Shown here one piece after another: positions 5,067 to 47,049 of a stretch of 64,000 nucleotides of DNA. The DNA comes from Polyangiaceae bacterium (GTDB taxonomy: Bacteria; Myxococcota_A; Polyangia; Polyangiales; Polyangiaceae): NCBI GenBank assembly GCA_046351325.1, contig JAXLYR010000002.1:624334-688333 (forward strand), read 5' to 3'. Within the stretch, counting starts at the first letter, position 1; each line of letters begins with the position of its first letter. Under the pieces are notes generated by a model. The model was given only the letters and a program-made list of their open reading frames with translations. It was not told the DNA's origin and searched no databases. The translations under genes were made by a program, and so were the position numbers.

Positions 5067-6602
5067 TCAGCCAGGCAGAGGCGCGCCGCAGTCGTATCGG
5101 CAGGAGCCGTCGTTGCACCAATTGAAGGGGTAGAAGCACTCGAAGCACTGGCCCAAAGGCGCGCAGAGCGGGCCGCATTGATACTCGTTGACGTCGCAAG
5201 CAGGGTGGCAATCCCAAGCTGGCGTGCAGGTCCCCTCGGGGCCGCATTTGACGTTGGGGTCGATGCAGGGGACGCCGCGATATTGATCGAGCTCCGGCAA
5301 GAGGTCATTCGTGCGCTTTTCGTACCAATCACGGATTTGCTGGTAACGGTCCTCATCGCCATTCCGCAGCATGCCCGCTTGGGTGAGTCGATCGTAGACA
5401 GAGTCGACCAGCGCGACGGGGTCGAGCGCGTTGAAGTCGGCGATCGTTGCCTCGCAGGTCGCGATCGTCTCGGCCCAACAATCGGGGTCGGACTGGCAGC
5501 CGTTGCTCACCGAGTTTGACCCGTAGAGTGGCGTGTATTGATACCACTCTTGGCCGGCGCTGATGTCGATCGAGTAAGGCAGATACATGAACTTGCCGTC
5601 CTCGCGCTCGAGCAAGACGACATTGTTCTGATTGTGGAGCGCGTCGTCGCCAGTCCAGAGCATCCACGACAGACACTGGAACTTCTGGATTGAGGGCCAA
5701 TCCAGGTAATCGGCAGTAGCGGCCTCGAAGCCCGGGCCGGCCGGCGTGTTTTGGAGGATCTGCGCGAGCTCCGAGGCGCGCGTGCCGTCACACGCTGCGA
5801 GCCTGCAGTTCTCCTGCGAATTGAAATCCGTAAAGGGGATGTCGCCGACGAACTCGAAGAGGTTGGGGCAGCTGCCGCCGAGCTGGTCGAGGCGCGCATC
5901 GCAGAAGTCCTTCTTGTAGACCTCCGTCACCGTGTAAGGGATTTGGACGTCCTCACCCCAGACGTTGCTGCCTACCCAAGCATAGGACGCGAGCGGCGCC
6001 GGATAGCCGAGTCCGCGATAGACCTCGAGCGCGATGAGCTCGCGGAAGATCGAACCGACGAGGCCGTTGTTGAAGCGGAAGTGCTCGTAGCCGCCGACGA
6101 GGCCGCCGTCGAACTCGTTTGCGTCGACGCGGAGGTTGGGGATCGAGTCCGCGGTCCAAGGGCGCCACGTCGATTGGCCGATCACGCGAACCTCGACCTG
6201 GCCGTAGTCAGCAGTGGAAGGCTCGTTGCCGCTGGTCGTCACGAACAGGTGATTCGCGTAGGTCGCGTTGCTCTCGCCCGAGCCCCCGGGTTGGTAGATG
6301 TCGCCGTTGGGGAACGGGCCGCCGCCCTGCTGCTCATTCATCTTGGCGACCTCGTCCGGATCGGTCGCAAACCAGAACCGATTGCCGTCCACGCCGAAGA
6401 GGTCGACCGTCTGCTCGCTCGGCTGCATGTTGGGCTTGGGCGCGCCGTCAAGGGTCGGGTCCTCACCCCCGGAGCCGGAGCCGCTGCCGCCGCTGCCGCC
6501 GCCACCATCTTCAGGCGGAGGAGGCGTGATGTACGTGTTGTACGTGTTGCACGCGGTCGCAAGGAGAGCAGCAAAAGCAAGAGATCGTTGTCGACGGATC
6601 AT
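5067..6602 (-). CDS. secreted Cys-rich lipoprotein, possibly CotH-like (uncertain)
   Basis: Signal peptide plus lipobox (LLATAC), a Gly/Ser-rich linker and a Cys-rich C-terminal module. The central region (NQNNVVLLEREDGKFMYLPYSIDIS) loosely resembles CotH kinase-family motifs. Confidence 0.55.
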   Translation of the reverse strand: MIRRQRSLAFAALLATACNTYNTYITPPPPEDGGGGSGGSGSGSGGEDPTLDGAPKPNMQPSEQTVDLFGVDGNRFWFATDPDEVAKMNEQQGGGPFPNGDIYQPGGSGESNATYANHLFVTTSGNEPSTADYGQVEVRVIGQSTWRPWTADSIPNLRVDANEFDGGLVGGYEHFRFNNGLVGSIFRELIALEVYRGLGYPAPLASYAWVGSNVWGEDVQIPYTVTEVYKKDFCDARLDQLGGSCPNLFEFVGDIPFTDFNSQENCRLAACDGTRASELAQILQNTPAGPGFEAATADYLDWPSIQKFQCLSWMLWTGDDALHNQNNVVLLEREDGKFMYLPYSIDISAGQEWYQYTPLYGSNSVSNGCQSDPDCWAETIATCEATIADFNALDPVALVDSVYDRLTQAGMLRNGDEDRYQQIRDWYEKRTNDLLPELDQYRGVPCIDPNVKCGPEGTCTPAWDCHPACDVNEYQCGPLCAPLGQCFECFYPFNWCNDGSCRYDCGAPLPG

Positions 6603-42656: not shown

Positions 42657-43613
42657 TTACTTGATTGAGTATTCGAACGTCTGCTGCTTACCGCCGCGAT
42701 CGAGCACGACCGTGAGGCTCTTCGCCGTCTTCATCGTGTCCATCGCCGTCATCGCACGGTCGAGATCCGCCATGTCCGCGCCGTTGACGGAGCGGATGAT
42801 GTCGTCCTTCTTCAAGCCGAGCTGGCCGAGGATCGTCGTCGAGGTGATCTTGTAGAGCTTCATGCCCTTGCCCTCGACGAGGCGCCCCGACTTCTGGATT
42901 GCGCCCTTGATCATGCCGACCTTCTCCGGGCCGTCTCCCTCGATCTCCCACTGCGTCTCGGAGAGCTTGCGGATGCCGCCGATGGGGCCAGTCGTCGCGC
43001 GGGGCGGTGCCTCGGTCGGCACGCTCGGCTGATCGGCGTCGCGGCCCGCGTTGCCCATCGCCCCGACGGGGCCCGCGGCGGACGACATCGACGAGTGCCC
43101 GTCGTGCATCTTCAGCTGGCAGCGATCGGCGCCCCCGCCGAGCACGACGTGTTCGCGGTGGATCGACTCGACCTTCTTGCCGTCGACGTCGTCGCCGATG
43201 CGCCGCATCTTCGCCGACGTGCCGTTGCCCTGAATGACGGCGAACGCGACCTTCGGGTCGTCTGCGCCCACGATCAACACCACGCCACCGTTGGGGCAAA
43301 CGGGGAGCACGGGGTCACCCACCGGCGCGATGACGGGCGCGCTCGACACGGGCGGAGGGGCCTTCACAGGCTTGTCGCTGAGCGGCCCAGTCTTCGAGTC
43401 GAAGGGGTTGCGCGCGAGGATGGTGCGCGCGGTCTTCACCGTTGGGGGCGTCGCGAGCGCGGTGTCGCGCTTGCCGGCGACGGTGATCTCGTTCGACTGG
43501 AGCTGCTCGGCGATGAGGCTCGAGATGCCCCGCGACTGGAGGTACGCGACGATCACGAGCAGCGCGGCGACGATGCCGACGTAGTAGCGCTTCGCGAACG
43601 TATCGAGACCCAC
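42657..43613 (-). CDS. GspC-like type II secretion PDZ-domain protein (orphan)
   Basis: An N-terminal TM helix, a Pro-rich linker and a C-terminal PDZ-like segment (GMKLYKITSTTILGQLGLKKDDIIRSVNG). No other gsp genes are nearby. Confidence 0.55.
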   Translation of the reverse strand: MGLDTFAKRYYVGIVAALLVIVAYLQSRGISSLIAEQLQSNEITVAGKRDTALATPPTVKTARTILARNPFDSKTGPLSDKPVKAPPPVSSAPVIAPVGDPVLPVCPNGGVVLIVGADDPKVAFAVIQGNGTSAKMRRIGDDVDGKKVESIHREHVVLGGGADRCQLKMHDGHSSMSSAAGPVGAMGNAGRDADQPSVPTEAPPRATTGPIGGIRKLSETQWEIEGDGPEKVGMIKGAIQKSGRLVEGKGMKLYKITSTTILGQLGLKKDDIIRSVNGADMADLDRAMTAMDTMKTAKSLTVVLDRGGKQQTFEYSIK

Positions 43614-43718: not shown

Positions 43719-44363
43719 TTAGAAGCTACCGGACAGCATCGCGCCAGTGCCACTCACCGAGAACTCGACGCGCGGACTGGGCGAACGGTGATGACCACGG
43801 TCGCCAGGGTTGGCGAGACCGACAATCAAGAGGGGGATCCCCACCGCGGACCCAATGGCGCCGATCGACATGAACATAATGCCGTAGCTGGCCTGGAGAT
43901 TCCACCACTCGTCGAGTGGCGCGTCCGCGTAGAGCACCGCGCCCGCGATCAGCCAGCCCGCTGCTACCCCGGACGCGACGCCACCGGCGATGGTAATTCC
44001 CCGCCAGATATGATGTGGATGCGCGCGACGCTCGACTGGATTGGCGCGGTCCGGAACGGAGACGCGAACGCGGCTCCGGCGAGGCCCATGGCCCGGGGCA
44101 GGCTCCGCGGGCTCGCCGTCGACCACGTCGTCGTCGCCGGCCTCGTCCCTTTGGATTGCGTCCTCATCGTCGGTGGCGTCGTCGTCTCCAACCTCACAGT
44201 CCTCGACGGTCGTGACGACCTCGACCTTGTCATGATCCACAGTGACGACCACGGATGGTTTTGGCGGTGTGCCCTGCTGTTCTGCCTCGTCGGGATCGGC
44301 AGATGCAACAGCTGCAACGGAGTGGACGAGGAGCAGCGCAACCAATCCTGAAAGTGTTCGCAT
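43719..44363 (-). CDS. hypothetical secreted/membrane protein with an acidic N-terminal region
   Basis: Signal peptide MRTLSGLVALLLVHSVAAVASA, an Asp/Glu-rich segment, and C-terminal TM helices. Confidence 0.45.
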   Translation of the reverse strand: MRTLSGLVALLLVHSVAAVASADPDEAEQQGTPPKPSVVVTVDHDKVEVVTTVEDCEVGDDDATDDEDAIQRDEAGDDDVVDGEPAEPAPGHGPRRSRVRVSVPDRANPVERRAHPHHIWRGITIAGGVASGVAAGWLIAGAVLYADAPLDEWWNLQASYGIMFMSIGAIGSAVGIPLLIVGLANPGDRGHHRSPSPRVEFSVSGTGAMLSGSF

Positions 44364-44586
44364 GTCGTCTTACGATTCAATGGCGATGCCAATGGGTTTT
44401 CGCGCGCGAGTCGTTCGGCGGGCTAAGTGCATTGAGCCCAATGGGCGTCACTCGAGAGGGCACCGTGTGCCCTTCGAGTGACAGATGCCAGTCGCCTCGA
44501 GCCGCGTTCGGATGCGCTGCCTTCGTGATAGGTTGCGCCCGCGTGTAGCACAAGCCAAACGGCTCCCTTCAAGAGGCTCGACTCTC

Positions 44587-45447
44587 ATGCCCACCCTCAC
44601 CGGAATTCATACCGACAATCGGCGCCTCGAGAAGCGCATCACGGCGGCCACGGCCAAGGTGGCCATTCAGGACGTGAGGTCCATAGACCTGAGCGAGTTC
44701 CCCAAGGCTGCCAAGTGCCGTGAGCTCGTCCTCAACCCCGTGAAGACGATCGATGTCGGCCCTCTCGCCGGTCACCCTGCGCTCGAGAGCATCCAGCTGA
44801 CGCTCCCCGGCAGACCCGATCTGTCGCCTCTCGCCCGTTGTCCTCAGCTCCGAGAGCTCGAACTGAACTATGTCGGTTCCGAGCCCGTGGACTTGAGCAC
44901 CGTCGGGATTGGCCCGCAGCTTACCAAGCTCACGATCTCCTCAAAAATGGGCCGGCTCGACCTCACGCCGCTCGCGCAGGCTCAAACCATCACCAAGCTC
45001 GACCTGTCGGCGGCGACTGTGCTGGATCTCGCTCCAGTGCGCCGCATGTCCGGCGTTCGCACCCTGACGCTCCAAGGGACGGCTCCGCGCTACGACCTCG
45101 CACCCTTGGCCGGTATGCCGCTCGAGCACTTCTTTCTGAGCGCCAATGGATGGAAGGAGGTCGACCTGACGCCCATCGCGGTCCCCACGCTGCAGCAGCT
45201 GGCCATCATTCCGCTCGACGTCACGACGCTGAACCTCGATCCGCTGGCCGCGTGCACGTCCTTGCAGGTGGTCTCGCTCGCCCCTGGCTACGCGTCGATT
45301 CTGCGACTCACTGGATTGGCAGGGCTCGCCAACCTGCACACCATCCGGTTCCCTTCTTACGTCGATCTCGTCTGCCACGCCGATCCCAAGAGCATTGCGT
45401 GCGTCCCATTGCGCGAGCACCTGCGTCACCCGAGAAGCGGGATATGA
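44587..45447 (+). CDS. leucine-rich repeat (LRR) protein
   Basis: Repeated LxxLxLxxx(D)LxPLA segments throughout. Start at the internal ATG (MPTLTG). Confidence 0.7.
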   Translation: MPTLTGIHTDNRRLEKRITAATAKVAIQDVRSIDLSEFPKAAKCRELVLNPVKTIDVGPLAGHPALESIQLTLPGRPDLSPLARCPQLRELELNYVGSEPVDLSTVGIGPQLTKLTISSKMGRLDLTPLAQAQTITKLDLSAATVLDLAPVRRMSGVRTLTLQGTAPRYDLAPLAGMPLEHFFLSANGWKEVDLTPIAVPTLQQLAIIPLDVTTLNLDPLAACTSLQVVSLAPGYASILRLTGLAGLANLHTIRFPSYVDLVCHADPKSIACVPLREHLRHPRSGI

Positions 45448-45528
45448 GGCGTCGTGTGTAAGCTCGAACCGGACAGTCGCGCGGCGACGCGAGCGCAGCC
45501 GTCGGTCATGTTGATCCGCGTCCGATTC

Positions 45529-45543
45529 GTGTCACTCTGACAC
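45529..45543. promoter_or_regulatory. palindrome GTGTCA-ctc-TGACAC upstream of the 45667 lipoprotein gene
   Basis: Perfect 6-bp inverted repeat read directly from the sequence, about 125 nt upstream of the start codon. Confidence 0.3.
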
Positions 45544-45666
45544 ACTCGTACGCCACGACTGCCAGGTTGTCCGAGTTGCCGGGGAGTACCTGTCGCGCCG
45601 CCCCACCAAAATGCGCTGAATTGGCGACGCCGCGCGGGTGGCCCCGCGATTGCTCAGCGGCCGACG

Positions 45667-46227
45667 ATGCCTAATCGAACCAGTGCTTGGTCTGCTCGGA
45701 GTGTCCGCTTCGGGCGTTTCTTCTTCGTGCTCTCGAGCCTCGTGGGGTTGGTTGCACTGAGCGGCCTCCTTGCGGCCTGCGAAGAGCCCAACTCGCCATT
45801 CGTGGAGACAGAGTTTCTTCTGCCCGACGACGCAGAACAGAACGATAACGGCTCCATTGGTCCCTTCTGTTGCACCGGCAGAACGGTCACTGTCGAGACG
45901 AAGAGTGGCCACGAGGCAGGGTATGCCCACTTCTTCTTTTGGGATGGCCAAGCCTTCAGCGACGACAAGACCTCCTATGCTCCCAACGTCATCATCGACA
46001 TTGCGGCGCTGGCCGACGTCGAAGACGAGACCTCGGAGCTCTTGCAGTCCCGGATCTTCTTCGATGGGAACGAGCTCGCTGTGGGCGAGTCCCGGTCTCA
46101 GCAGGTGGGCGCGATCATCTTCACAGCCACGGTCGAAGAGGTCGATACGTACACGTTCGACGGCGAGTCCTACTTCGATATGGCGACGCTGAAGATGAGT
46201 CTGACCGTCGAAACCGAGGACGAGTAA
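45667..46227 (+). CDS. small secreted lipoprotein, AT-richer than its surroundings
   Basis: Lipobox LSGLLAACEEP. Codon usage is visibly less GC-biased (ttt, aaa, gat and similar codons). It sits between the LRR gene and its remnant. Confidence 0.55.
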   Translation: MPNRTSAWSARSVRFGRFFFVLSSLVGLVALSGLLAACEEPNSPFVETEFLLPDDAEQNDNGSIGPFCCTGRTVTVETKSGHEAGYAHFFFWDGQAFSDDKTSYAPNVIIDIAALADVEDETSELLQSRIFFDGNELAVGESRSQQVGAIIFTATVEEVDTYTFDGESYFDMATLKMSLTVETEDE

Positions 46228-46254
46228 CTGGTAGGCTCGACGCCCGCCCGCTCT

Positions 46255-46452
46255 CACGGAGTTCACACGGACAATCGGCGCTGGATTGGAGAGCGTCACG
46301 CTCACGCTCACGGGCAGGCCTGACTTGTCGCCTCTCGCGCACTGTCCTCGGCTCCGCGAGCTCGAGTTGGACCTCGTCTGCCACGCCAATCCAAACGACA
46401 TAGCTTGCGTCCCATTGCGCGAGCACCTGCACCACCCGAAAAGCGGGATCTG
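46255..46452 (+). pseudogene. decayed, internally deleted copy of the LRR gene
   Basis: Three blocks show about 80-85% identity to the 44587..45447 gene: (i) the 5' end minus its start codon, (ii) gene positions about 44795-44880, and (iii) the last about 85 nt including the stop. The order is preserved and the intervening roughly 170 and roughly 480 nt are missing. Confidence 0.6.
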
Positions 46453-46500
46453 ACCGCCATCGGGACTCGATACGACTCGCGCCCGGCTATGCTGCCGCCC

Positions 46501-47049
46501 ATGAAAGACAAAGCGCTGGCGCTCTTCGCAGGTGTCCTCGGGATCGTCGCTGTCGGGTGTGGCAATGGAGCCGGTGGGGCGAGCAGCTCGGCCGCAACGA
46601 CGGGGACTGGCGCGAACAAGACAGCCGCGTCCTCCACGTCATCGTCGGCTGCAGCGTCGGCGTCGGCGCCGGCAACAGCCACGGAGAAGCCGGCCGCAGC
46701 GCCGGGAACGACCGCCGAGCTGCGCGCGAATGCCCAGGCCATCATGGGCGCGCTGAAGCGGGGCGACGCGAAGGCCGCGGGCGCCTATTGCAAGGGCAAG
46801 CACCACGACGCGTTCGAGAAGTACCTCGCCGAGAACATCGAGAAGAAGAGCCGCGAATGGGACAAGTGGGACGAGAAGCTCGGGGAGATCCGCGTCGACG
46901 GAGACAACGCGCGGGTCGCCTACAAGCAGAGTGACAAGGATGTAGGCTATCTATCGTTCCGGAAGATCGACGGGTCCTGGTCCCTCGACGATACGCCCTC
47001 GACCTCCAAGGCCAGTTGGGACAAGTGGGGCAAGGTCGCGACCGATTGA
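46501..47049 (+). CDS. hypothetical lipoprotein
   Basis: Start at the internal M (MKDKALALFAGVLGIVAVGCGNG), an Ala/Ser-rich linker, and a Lys/Asp/Glu-rich domain. Confidence 0.55.
   Translation: MKDKALALFAGVLGIVAVGCGNGAGGASSSAATTGTGANKTAASSTSSSAAASASAPATATEKPAAAPGTTAELRANAQAIMGALKRGDAKAAGAYCKGKHHDAFEKYLAENIEKKSREWDKWDEKLGEIRVDGDNARVAYKQSDKDVGYLSFRKIDGSWSLDDTPSTSKASWDKWGKVATD

What the first reader, a model, noticed from the sequence alone, without database searches (positions are those of the whole stretch)
44587..46452. LRR gene plus a decayed, internally deleted second copy bracketing an AT-richer lipoprotein gene
About 200 nt at 46255..46452 reproduce, in order and at roughly 80-85% identity, the 5' end (minus the ATG), a middle block and the 3' end with stop of the LRR gene at 44587..45447. 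The small lipoprotein gene between them has visibly lower GC and different codon usage. This looks like the scar of a duplication followed by deletions, or a cassette insertion. The decay could feed spurious gene calls: ORFs 44838..45461 and 46405.. share the IARAPA.PEKRD peptide from the repeat.
Basis: seen in the sequence. Interest (0 to 1): 0.5.

Follow-up and report, generated by a model that had tools for sequence, protein, structure and literature searches.

The report
Decayed remnant of duplicated LRR gene
A 221-base stretch between two lipoprotein genes is the unannotated, broken leftover of a second copy of the neighbouring leucine-rich-repeat gene, which is an ordinary bacterial pseudogene relic and not a new kind of element.

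Summary
Window 46233-46453 reproduces three parts of the LRR gene 44587-45447, in order and on the same strand. These are the ribosome-site/5' end (81% identity), one internal repeat unit (about 80%) and the last 27 codons plus the stop (86%). The best match scores 98.7 bits against at most 27.4 in 200 shuffles. It is not generic LRR similarity, because the next-best register reaches only 54.5%.

The copy has lost its ATG and carries a 1-nt frameshift. A 159-nt stretch is replaced by 7 nt, and a further 498 nt are deleted in frame. Differences sit mostly at third codon positions (dN/dS about 0.17), so the two copies diverged largely as coding genes before one collapsed.

The source is a Polyangiaceae MAG. 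Its annotation (U0271_09745 to _09760) calls neither the remnant nor any spurious ORF. No intact second copy, and no syntenic locus, exists in public data.

The lipoprotein gene does have the lowest GC in the window (0.586). However, its synonymous codon usage equals that of the LRR gene, so a foreign cassette is not specifically supported.

One oddity remains. The 7-nt junction filler creates CTGGATTGG, the most over-represented 9-mer in the window.

Verdict: an ordinary pseudogene relic, of low interest.

The parts
44587..45447 (+). Intact LRR gene (286 aa; public tag U0271_09745, Polyangiaceae MAG). It is an internalin-like solenoid of about 22-residue repeats. By inspection it has no signal peptide.
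   Evidence: The exact protein is in the public collection. NCBIfam gives partial internalin hits and Pfam LRR_4 is sub-threshold. The AlphaFold model has pLDDT 93.1. Foldseek's top hits are InlA (E 2.6e-8) and the Roco LRR domain.
46233..46453 (+). Remnant (pseudogene relic) of a second, paralogous LRR gene copy. It is unannotated and lies in the spacer between the two lipoprotein genes.
   Evidence: Three co-linear blocks. Shuffle control. No gene tag exists between U0271_09750 and _09755.
46233..46281 (+). Block 1: part of the ribosome-binding region and codons 1-13. The ATG is destroyed by a 2-nt deletion and codon 5 carries a 1-nt deletion.
   Evidence: Aligned to 44574-44625 at 81% with 3 gap nt. 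Codons 6-13 read GVHTDNRR against GIHTDNRR, with 2 of the 3 changes synonymous.
46282..46288 (+). 7-nt filler TGGATTG standing in for 159 nt (44626-44784) of the intact gene. It shifts the frame relative to block 1.
   Evidence: Junction sequences. With its flanking bases it forms CTGGATTGG, an over-represented word.
46289..46369 (+). Block 2: codons 67-93, exactly one LRR unit (ESVTLTLTGRPDLSPLAHCPRLRELEL).
   Evidence: 80.5% identity to 44785-44861, next-best register 54.5%. This corresponds to strand 68-73, helix 80-83 and strand 90-95 of the model.
46370..46453 (+). Block 3: codons 260-286 plus the TGA stop (C-terminal cap). It is joined in frame to block 2 after a 498-nt (166-codon) deletion.
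   Evidence: 86% identity to 45364-45447. The tail motif CVPLR.HL..P.SGI is also conserved in the 54%-identical homologue P0002.
44622..44632 (+). GCGCCTCGAGA, the left member of a short direct repeat at the left edge of the segment missing from the remnant (deletion 1).
   Evidence: Read from the sequence. Its partner is GCGCTCGAGA at 44779-44788. Both CTC GAG pairs are in the same frame (codons 14-15 and 66-67).
44779..44788 (+). GCGCTCGAGA, the right member of the direct repeat at the right edge of deletion 1.
45667..46227 (+). Lipoprotein gene 1 (186 aa from ATG 45667; public call U0271_09750 is 166 aa from GTG 45727). It has the lipobox LLAAC and an all-beta domain with an invariant IGPFCCTG.TVTV motif. 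It belongs to no known family.
   Evidence: The model has pLDDT 62 overall and 65-90 for residues 70-185. No fold match at E<0.1. GC 0.586.
46501..47049 (+). Lipoprotein gene 2 (182 aa, U0271_09755; signal peptide MKDKALALFAGVLGIVAVGC). The mechanical ORF from TTG 46405 runs back into the remnant, but the annotated start is ATG 46501.

Best explanation
The 221 nt at 46233-46453 are a non-functional relic of a second, paralogous copy (call it 'B') of the adjacent LRR gene ('A', 44587-45447).

Shown: B is specifically homologous to A from 13 nt upstream of the start codon to the stop codon. It is closer to A than either is to the nearest homologue from another genome. It carries four inactivating or reducing lesions. 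The start codon is lost through a 2-nt deletion. There is a 1-nt deletion in codon 5. A 159-nt segment is replaced by 7 nt, giving a frameshift. A 498-nt segment is deleted in frame.

Inferred: an LRR gene was duplicated, or a close paralogue was acquired. The two copies then diverged for a considerable time while both were translated. The differences are mostly synonymous, with dS about 0.6 and dN/dS about 0.17. Copy B then lost function and was whittled down by the deletional bias typical of bacterial genomes.

Deletion 1 has the short direct repeat GCGC(C)TCGAGA at both of its edges in the intact copy. This points to slippage or illegitimate recombination between short repeats, followed or accompanied by a small insertion.

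What is left now serves only as the spacer between two lipoprotein genes. Similarity ends at the gene borders because neutral flanks at this divergence are no longer recognisable. For that reason the original duplication unit cannot be recovered, nor whether lipoprotein gene 1 was inside it or inserted later.
For: Co-linear blocks with E-values of 1.7e-5 to 2.5e-22 against the whole window, and only two copies in 64 kb.

Shuffle control: 98.7 bits observed against a maximum of 27.4.

Register specificity: 80.5% against 54.5% for block 2, and 85.7% against 44% for block 3.

Lesions read directly from the alignments.

Mismatches by codon position are 7/6/16. There are 17 synonymous and 12 non-synonymous differences, dN/dS 0.17. 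Binomial P is 1e-4 against omega=1 and 0.03 against omega=0.5.

Over the shared 62 codons, A-B amino-acid identity is 82%, while A and B are each 53% identical to P0002. The duplication therefore postdates the split from that lineage.

Changes assigned to the remnant lineage are flat across codon positions (5/3/5). Those assigned to the intact lineage are third-position biased (2/1/11). Fisher P = 0.054.

There is no annotated gene at the remnant, no Rfam family, and no unusual RNA fold, z = -0.74.
Against: No relative with an intact copy B, and no syntenic locus, could be found. The ancestral state is therefore inferred, not observed.

The low overall dN/dS, and the open 55-codon frame spanning blocks 2 and 3, would also fit continued selection on a mini-ORF.

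The 7-nt filler is not explained by simple repeat-mediated deletion.

The sequence comes from a metagenome-assembled genome. I found no independent assembly covering the remnant.

The polarisation uses an outgroup that is only about 61% identical at the nucleotide level, and it rests on 27 polarised changes.
Confidence: 0.88

Rival explanations
1. Cassette insertion. Two tandem LRR copies were originally adjacent, and the lipoprotein-1 gene was inserted between them as horizontally acquired DNA. This is a sub-scenario of the best explanation, not a contradiction of it.
For: Lipoprotein gene 1 has the lowest GC in the window, 0.586 against 0.675. Its only three detectable homologues lie on contigs of 54-57% GC, and none is next to an LRR gene. 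In the species carrying the closest LRR homologue, two 98%-identical strains differ by whole-gene indels directly on both sides of the LRR gene.
Against: Its GC3 (0.76) and codon-typicality score (-1.090) are the same as those of the LRR gene (0.80, -1.089). The upstream gene p214 is even less typical. The whole stretch 43.7-46.2 kb is therefore atypical, not the lipoprotein gene alone. No insertion scars, direct repeats, tRNA or integrase were seen in the ORFs scanned from 36 to 53 kb.
Confidence: 0.25
2. The remnant is still functional. It could act as a 55-codon mini-ORF (TTG 46286 to TGA 46453: one LRR unit plus the C-terminal cap) or as a structured leader or 3'UTR between the lipoprotein genes.
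For: Blocks 2 and 3 are joined in frame, and the 498-nt deletion is exactly 166 codons. dN/dS between the copies is 0.17.
Against: The only start is a TTG with no recognisable ribosome site, by inspection. This ORF sequence is absent from a 15-billion-protein collection. One LRR unit without its neighbours is unlikely to fold. Changes in the remnant lineage are spread evenly over codon positions. There is no Rfam hit, and folding energy is ordinary, z = -0.74. An in-frame deletion is expected by chance one time in three.
Confidence: 0.04
3. Silent donor cassette. The truncated copy serves as a template for gene conversion into the expressed LRR gene. This would be antigenic or specificity variation, as with pilS/pilE, vls, or orphan Rhs/CDI modules.
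For: It is a promoterless partial copy lying 0.8 kb downstream of an expressed paralogue that encodes a binding protein.
Against: There is a single copy only. It retains the conserved cap regions and one repeat, not a variable segment. It carries frameshifts and a non-homologous filler. The 17% divergence, with the longest identical run only 25 nt, argues against recent conversion. The closest relative has no such partner within 10 kb.
Confidence: 0.03
4. Diversity-generating retroelement: the remnant is a template repeat and the 3' end of the LRR gene is the variable repeat.
For: A short, imperfect copy of the 3' end of a ligand-binding-protein gene, including the stop, lies nearby.
Against: Mismatches show no adenine specificity. 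Of 32 mismatches, 9 have A in the remnant and 9 have A in the gene, and there are 19 transitions and 13 transversions. No reverse transcriptase domain appeared among the ORFs scanned from 36 to 53 kb. The copy also includes 5' and internal blocks.
Confidence: 0.01
5. Assembly artefact of the MAG: a chimeric join of reads from a related strain.
For: The source is a metagenome-assembled genome. Only the intact gene was recovered on an independent Logan contig.
Against: The remnant is 17% diverged from the gene, has clean co-linear structure, and lies between two intact genes on a 1.14-Mb contig. Chimeras do not produce codon-position-biased divergence.
Confidence: 0.03

Closest known systems
Bacterial pseudogene relics left by deletional decay of a redundant duplicate. 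This rests on established knowledge of deletional bias in bacterial genomes and the rapid extinction of pseudogenes, from my own knowledge and not checked in papers here.
   Same: There is homology to a functional neighbour, a lost start codon, frameshifts and large internal deletions. The relic sits in an intergenic position and has no annotation.
   Different: Nothing essential. The unusual details are that the largest deletion is in frame and that one junction carries a 7-nt filler.
Internalin-type bacterial LRR proteins (Listeria InlA/InlB/InlH; Chlorobium Roco LRR domain)
   Same: The intact gene encodes an LRR solenoid of about 22-residue repeats. Foldseek matches InlA at E 2.6e-8, TM about 0.6 normalised to the query. 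NCBIfam gives partial internalin matches.
   Different: There is no signal peptide, no Ig-like inter-repeat domain and no LPXTG/GW anchor. The scores are far below the family cut-offs (33.6 bits against 1050). It belongs to a small family of about 270-aa proteins, mostly from uncultured bacteria, with its own N-terminal and C-terminal caps.
Silent or orphan cassettes next to expressed genes (Neisseria pilS, Borrelia vls, orphan Rhs/CDI toxin-immunity modules)
   Same: A truncated, promoterless partial copy lies close to the expressed gene.
   Different: It is a single copy retaining conserved rather than variable parts. It is frameshifted and shows no sign of recent exchange.
DGR template/variable repeat pairs
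   Same: A short, diverged repeat of the 3' end of a binding-protein gene.
   Different: There are no adenine-specific differences and no reverse transcriptase was seen.

Membership tests
Pseudogene relic of a paralogue | Statistically significant, co-linear homology to a functional gene that goes beyond shared domain consensus | tested here: met
   E down to 2.5e-22. Shuffle maximum 27.4 against 98.7 bits observed. Own-register identity 80.5% against 54.5% for the next-best.
Pseudogene relic of a paralogue | Disabling lesions (lost start, frameshift, large truncation or deletion) | tested here: met
   the ATG is removed by a 2-nt deletion, there is a 1-nt deletion in codon 5, 159 nt are replaced by 7 nt, and 498 nt are deleted. 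62 of 286 codons are retained.
Pseudogene relic of a paralogue | Relaxed selective constraint on the disabled copy | tested here: inconclusive
   Remnant-lineage changes by codon position are 5/3/5, against 2/1/11 in the intact lineage (Fisher P=0.054). However, pairwise dN/dS is 0.17, there are few sites, and the outgroup is distant.
Pseudogene relic of a paralogue | No expression of a product | not testable with these tools
   Indirect evidence only: it is not annotated, and the 55-aa ORF is absent from the protein collection.
Tandem duplication in situ | Duplicate boundaries, or an intact two-copy state seen in relatives | tested here: not met
   Similarity stops at the gene borders. The nearest homologue (54% identity) is single-copy in a different neighbourhood. 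Five Polyangiaceae GspC loci show no synteny.
Internalin-like LRR protein (the intact gene) | Solenoid of 22-residue LRR units | tested here: met
   AlphaFold pLDDT 93.1 with regular strand/turn periodicity. Foldseek matches InlA at E 2.6e-8.
Internalin-like LRR protein (the intact gene) | Secretion signal and cell-wall anchoring or inter-repeat domain; score above the family cut-off | tested here: not met
   The N-terminus MPTLTGIHTDNRRLEKR has no hydrophobic signal, by inspection. NCBIfam scores 33.6 bits against a cut-off of 1050. Pfam LRR_4 scores 20 bits against 27.
Diversity-generating retroelement | Adenine-specific template-to-variable mismatches | tested here: not met
   of 32 mismatches, 9 have A in the remnant and 9 have A in the gene.
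Diversity-generating retroelement | Nearby reverse transcriptase | tested here: not met
   No RT domain among the ORFs scanned between 36 and 53 kb. The rest of the window was not scanned.
Bacterial lipoprotein (gene 45667-46227) | Signal peptide ending in a lipobox [LVI][ASTVI][GAS]C | tested here: met
   The sequence reads ...LVALSGLLAAC|EEP. This is by inspection only; no dedicated predictor was available.
Horizontally acquired cassette (lipoprotein gene 1) | Composition and codon usage distinct from its neighbours | tested here: not met
   GC is 0.586 but GC3 is 0.76, against 0.80 for the LRR gene. Codon-typicality scores are identical to the LRR gene.

The most novel reading that the evidence does not exclude
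The 7-nt filler at the deletion junction is not random. Together with its flanking bases it forms CTGGATTGG.

This is the most over-represented 9-mer of the window: 7 sites against 0.12-0.28 expected, and it remains enriched after synonymous-codon shuffling. Four of the nine 8-mer sites cluster in this 2.4-kb locus. One of these is an exact inverted copy 96 nt away inside the remnant, and another lies inside the intact gene.

The most novel reading not excluded is that this word is a genome-specific DNA-level signal tied to recombination or repair. It could be Chi-like, or a preferred template or target for template-switch or end-joining events. On that reading the remnant would record such an event.
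Probability: 0.06. Interest if true: 0.55.

Novelty: new member of a known kind. Interest (0 to 1): 0.15.

Why it matters
It matters little beyond annotation hygiene. The public record of this Polyangiaceae MAG does not mark the remnant, and labelling it as a pseudogene fragment would be correct.

It is a clean small example of how a redundant repeat-protein gene is dismantled. The short direct repeats at one deletion edge, the in-frame loss of 166 codons and the small junction filler are all visible.

It also shows that this uncharacterised family of about 270-aa cytoplasmic LRR proteins undergoes gene birth and death within one lineage.

The over-represented CTGGATTGG word is the only element that could lead somewhere new. 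Testing it needs the whole genome.

Tried and rejected
(1) Generic LRR similarity. Rejected by the register-specific identity profile.

(2) DGR. Rejected by the mismatch spectrum.

(3) Structured RNA or riboswitch in 43.5-47.5 kb. There were no Rfam matches at E<=1, and the fold z-score is -0.74.

(4) Promoter and terminator scan. There were no sigma-70-like sites, and the terminator-like hits were at chance level.

(5) Orthologous locus comparison. The nearest LRR homologue is 54% identical and sits in an unrelated neighbourhood next to an Rhs/SpvB toxin gene. The GspC-anchored search of 185,579 species genomes returned five Polyangiaceae loci with GspC identity of at most 48% and none of the locus genes. 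The metagenome scan returned only P0002-type genes.

(6) Homology between the two lipoprotein genes, which would indicate duplication of a two-gene unit. None was detected by tblastn.

(7) LRR-lipoprotein as a conserved gene pair. The lipoprotein homologues are not next to LRR genes.

(8) Fold assignment for lipoprotein 1. The model has moderate confidence and no PDB match better than E 0.15.

(9) Independent assembly of the remnant. Exact-protein look-ups for both lipoprotein genes found nothing.

(10) Literature search for the 8/9-mer. It returned only unrelated sequence strings.

(11) TAYGTCG repeats just inside both ends of deletion 2. Both copies are missing from the remnant, so they do not explain the deletion.
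Full report
THE OBSERVATION

I read 44200-46900 and listed the ORFs. I then compared 46200-46500 with 44400-45500 by BLASTN, and ran the repeat finder.

Three same-strand, co-linear blocks appear:
- 46233-46281 matches 44574-44625 at 81% with three gap bases.
- 46289-46372 matches 44785-44868 at 79-81%.
- 46370-46453 matches 45364-45447 at 86%.

Against the full 64-kb window the E-values are 1.7e-5, 3.5e-14 and 2.5e-22, and there is no third copy. In 200 dinucleotide-preserving shuffles of the 273-nt spacer, the best hit never exceeded 27.4 bits, against 98.7 observed.

It fails. Block 2 aligns to its own register at 80.5% and to the next-best repeat register at 54.5%. Block 3 is the non-repeat C-terminal tail plus the stop codon, at 85.7% against 44% elsewhere. 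Block 1 starts 13 nt upstream of the ATG, inside the probable ribosome-binding region.

The shared off-frame peptide in the mechanical ORFs 44838..45461 and 46405..47049 is also there.

WHAT THE GENES ARE

The 286-aa product of 44587-45447 is identical to a public protein, U0271_09745. It comes from a Polyangiaceae metagenome-assembled genome, on a 1.14-Mb contig.

Family libraries give only sub-threshold LRR or internalin matches. The AlphaFold model built on 13 family members is confident, with pLDDT 93.1. Its best structural matches are the internalin A LRR domain (E 2.6e-8) and the Roco LRR domain. By inspection it has no signal peptide.

It belongs to a thin family of about 270-aa proteins with their own N- and C-terminal caps. 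The nearest member, P0002, is only 54% identical.

The gene between the copies (45667-46227) encodes a protein with a signal peptide and the lipobox LLAAC. Its mature all-beta domain carries an invariant IGPFCCTG.TVTV motif. It has three detectable homologues in 5.8 billion proteins, no Pfam or NCBIfam family, and no PDB fold match.

The next gene (ATG 46501) is another, unrelated lipoprotein. The surroundings are chromosomal: GspC, BatA-like/DUF4159, LysR, ADH, holA and GlmU-like genes.

ANATOMY OF THE REMNANT

Relative to the intact gene, the remnant has four lesions:
- It lacks the AT of the ATG (a 2-nt deletion).
- It lacks one base of codon 5.
- Positions 44626-44784 (159 nt) are replaced by the seven bases TGGATTG, which shifts the frame.
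- It lacks 498 nt (166 codons) between codons 93/94 and 260.

Blocks 2 and 3 are joined in frame, giving a 55-codon open frame from TTG 46286. What survives is the first 13 codons, exactly one LRR unit (residues 67-93 of the model), and the C-terminal cap.

In the intact copy, the edges of deletion 1 carry the direct repeat GCGCCTCGAGA (44622-44632) and GCGCTCGAGA (44779-44788). The two CTC GAG pairs are in the same frame. A slippage or illegitimate-recombination deletion between them would be in frame. The filler adds four net bases.

Deletion 2 has no informative microhomology beyond 1-3 nt.

HISTORY INFERRED FROM SUBSTITUTIONS

Over blocks 2 and 3 there are 17 synonymous and 12 non-synonymous differences. 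pS is 0.42, pN is 0.10 and dN/dS is 0.17. Mismatches by codon position are 7/6/16.

This departs from neutrality (binomial P = 1e-4). It departs less strongly from the value expected if one copy had been neutral throughout (omega at least 0.5, P = 0.03). In block 1, two of three changes in codons 6-13 are synonymous.

I therefore infer that both copies were translated for much of their divergence and that the collapse of copy B is comparatively recent.

I used the P0002 gene as an outgroup. The two copies are each other's closest relatives, at 82% amino-acid identity, while each is 53% identical to P0002. Changes assigned to the remnant lineage are flat over codon positions (5/3/5). Those assigned to the intact lineage are third-position biased (2/1/11), with Fisher P = 0.054. 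This agrees with relaxed constraint on the remnant but is not decisive.

Similarity ends exactly at the gene borders. That is expected, because neutral flanks at dS of about 0.6 would no longer align. The original duplication unit therefore cannot be reconstructed.

THE LIPOPROTEIN GENE AND THE 'CASSETTE' IDEA

Its GC (0.586) is indeed the lowest of 39 ORFs. However, the deficit is at codon positions 1 and 2, with GC1-3 of 0.57, 0.43 and 0.76. The LRR gene has GC3 of 0.80 and the window median is about 0.85.

A leave-one-out synonymous-codon likelihood ranks the upstream gene p214, lipoprotein 1 and the LRR gene as 1st, 3rd and 4th least typical of 38 genes. Lipoprotein 1 and the LRR gene have identical scores, -1.090 and -1.089.

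The whole stretch 43.7-46.2 kb is therefore mildly atypical, not the lipoprotein gene alone.

There are two hints in favour of acquisition. First, the only lipoprotein homologues lie on contigs of 54-57% GC. Second, in the species carrying P0002, two 98%-identical strains differ by whole-gene indels immediately on both sides of the LRR gene. I rate insertion of the lipoprotein gene between two older copies as possible (about 0.25) but not shown.

COMPARISON WITH RELATIVES

- The LRR search found one homologue at 54% identity and the rest at 35% or less.
- That homologue is single-copy, beside an Rhs/SpvB toxin gene, in a different neighbourhood.
- A GspC-anchored scan of one genome per species returned five Polyangiaceae loci with at most 48% GspC identity and none of the locus genes.
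- The metagenome scan added only P0002-type genes.

An intact copy B would have been found by the LRR-A query, so none is in these collections.

RIVALS

DGR is excluded by the symmetric mismatch spectrum: 9 and 9 of 32 mismatches involve A on either side. No reverse transcriptase appeared among the neighbours.

A silent donor cassette is unlikely. There is a single copy, it retains conserved rather than variable parts, it is frameshifted, and its 17% divergence comes with no long identical tracts.

A functional mini-ORF or RNA is not excluded, but it has no positive support.

An assembly artefact is unlikely given the codon-structured divergence. It could not be tested with reads, and no independent assembly was found.

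ANNOTATION CONSEQUENCES

The public record has consecutive tags for the LRR gene, lipoprotein 1 (GTG 45727 start), lipoprotein 2 (ATG 46501) and the 228-aa gene.

AN UNEXPLAINED DETAIL

The junction filler plus its flanking bases reads CTGGATTGG. This 9-mer occurs 7 times in the window against 0.12 expected from dinucleotide shuffles. The 8-mer TGGATTGG occurs 9 times against 0.40 expected.

It is the top 9-mer by observed/expected ratio under an order-3 Markov model. It stays enriched when synonymous codons are shuffled within genes: 9 against 3.0 for the 8-mer, and 7 against 1.5 for the 9-mer. In those shuffles the intergenic sites were held fixed (two for the 8-mer, one for the 9-mer). The maxima over 500 shuffles were 7 and 4.

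The sites fall in different frames and on both strands relative to genes.

Four of the nine 8-mer sites lie within 44037-46393 (scan-statistic P about 0.02; local shuffle expectation 0.05). One is inside the intact gene, in the part missing from the remnant. One is the filler. One is its exact reverse complement 96 nt downstream in the remnant, created by two substitutions relative to the intact copy.

The word is absent from about 150 kb of other Polyangiaceae loci. I cannot tell whether this reflects templated insertion or template switching at the junction, a genome-wide signal of unknown role, or coincidence. The whole genome is needed.

VERDICT

The feature is an ordinary, previously unannotated pseudogene relic of a paralogous LRR gene. 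It is a new member of a known kind, and interest is low (0.15). The only lead with some potential is the over-represented 9-mer at the junction.

Noticed in passing
window 5697, 23167, 24888, 27606, 44037, 45312, 46282, 46386, 60182: TGGATTGG (mostly as CTGGATTGG) is strongly over-represented. There are 9 sites against 0.4 expected. It is the top 9-mer under an order-3 Markov model and is still enriched after synonymous-codon shuffling. The sites are in mixed frames and strands, and four cluster in the LRR locus. It is absent from about 150 kb of other Polyangiaceae loci. At 5685-5705 it forms a hairpin with its own complement.
   Followed up: partly
window-wide (12 sites; positions not listed): The palindromic 8-mer TTCATGAA (often CTTCATGAAG) occurs 12 times against about 0.4 expected under a dinucleotide model, making it the most over-represented 8-mer.
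   Followed up: no
window 45667-46227; L013 1241-2283; L014 957-3244: Lipoprotein 1 belongs to a tiny uncharacterised family, with 3 homologues in 5.8 billion proteins. The family has an invariant IGPFCCTG.TVTV motif and an all-beta domain without a PDB fold match. In L013 the domain is tandemly repeated. In L014 the homologue's stop overlaps the start of a patatin-TIR gene, which has a defence-like architecture.
   Followed up: partly
L002 9383-9950 and 10923-12970 versus L010 5939-6921: In the species carrying the closest LRR homologue (P0002), two strains are about 98% identical yet differ by whole-gene indels directly on both sides of the LRR gene. These are a 158-aa membrane protein gene and a beta-lactamase-family gene. 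A 2596-aa Rhs/SpvB toxin gene upstream in L002 has no counterpart in L010.
   Followed up: partly
window 43719-46227: The three genes p214 (secreted, acidic, with C-terminal membrane helices), LRR and lipoprotein 1 have the 1st, 4th and 3rd least typical synonymous codon usage of 38 genes in the window. GC3 is below 0.83 from 43.7 to 47.8 kb, against a window median of about 0.85. This may be a small, more recently acquired or weakly expressed islet.
   Followed up: partly
window 42657-43613 (-): A clear GspC (delta-type) homologue scores 210.8 bits against a cut-off of 150. It has no other type II secretion genes among the ORFs scanned from 36 to 53 kb. Immediately downstream of it on the same strand, the ORF with family hits is on the opposite strand and is BatA/VWA-like.
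   Followed up: no
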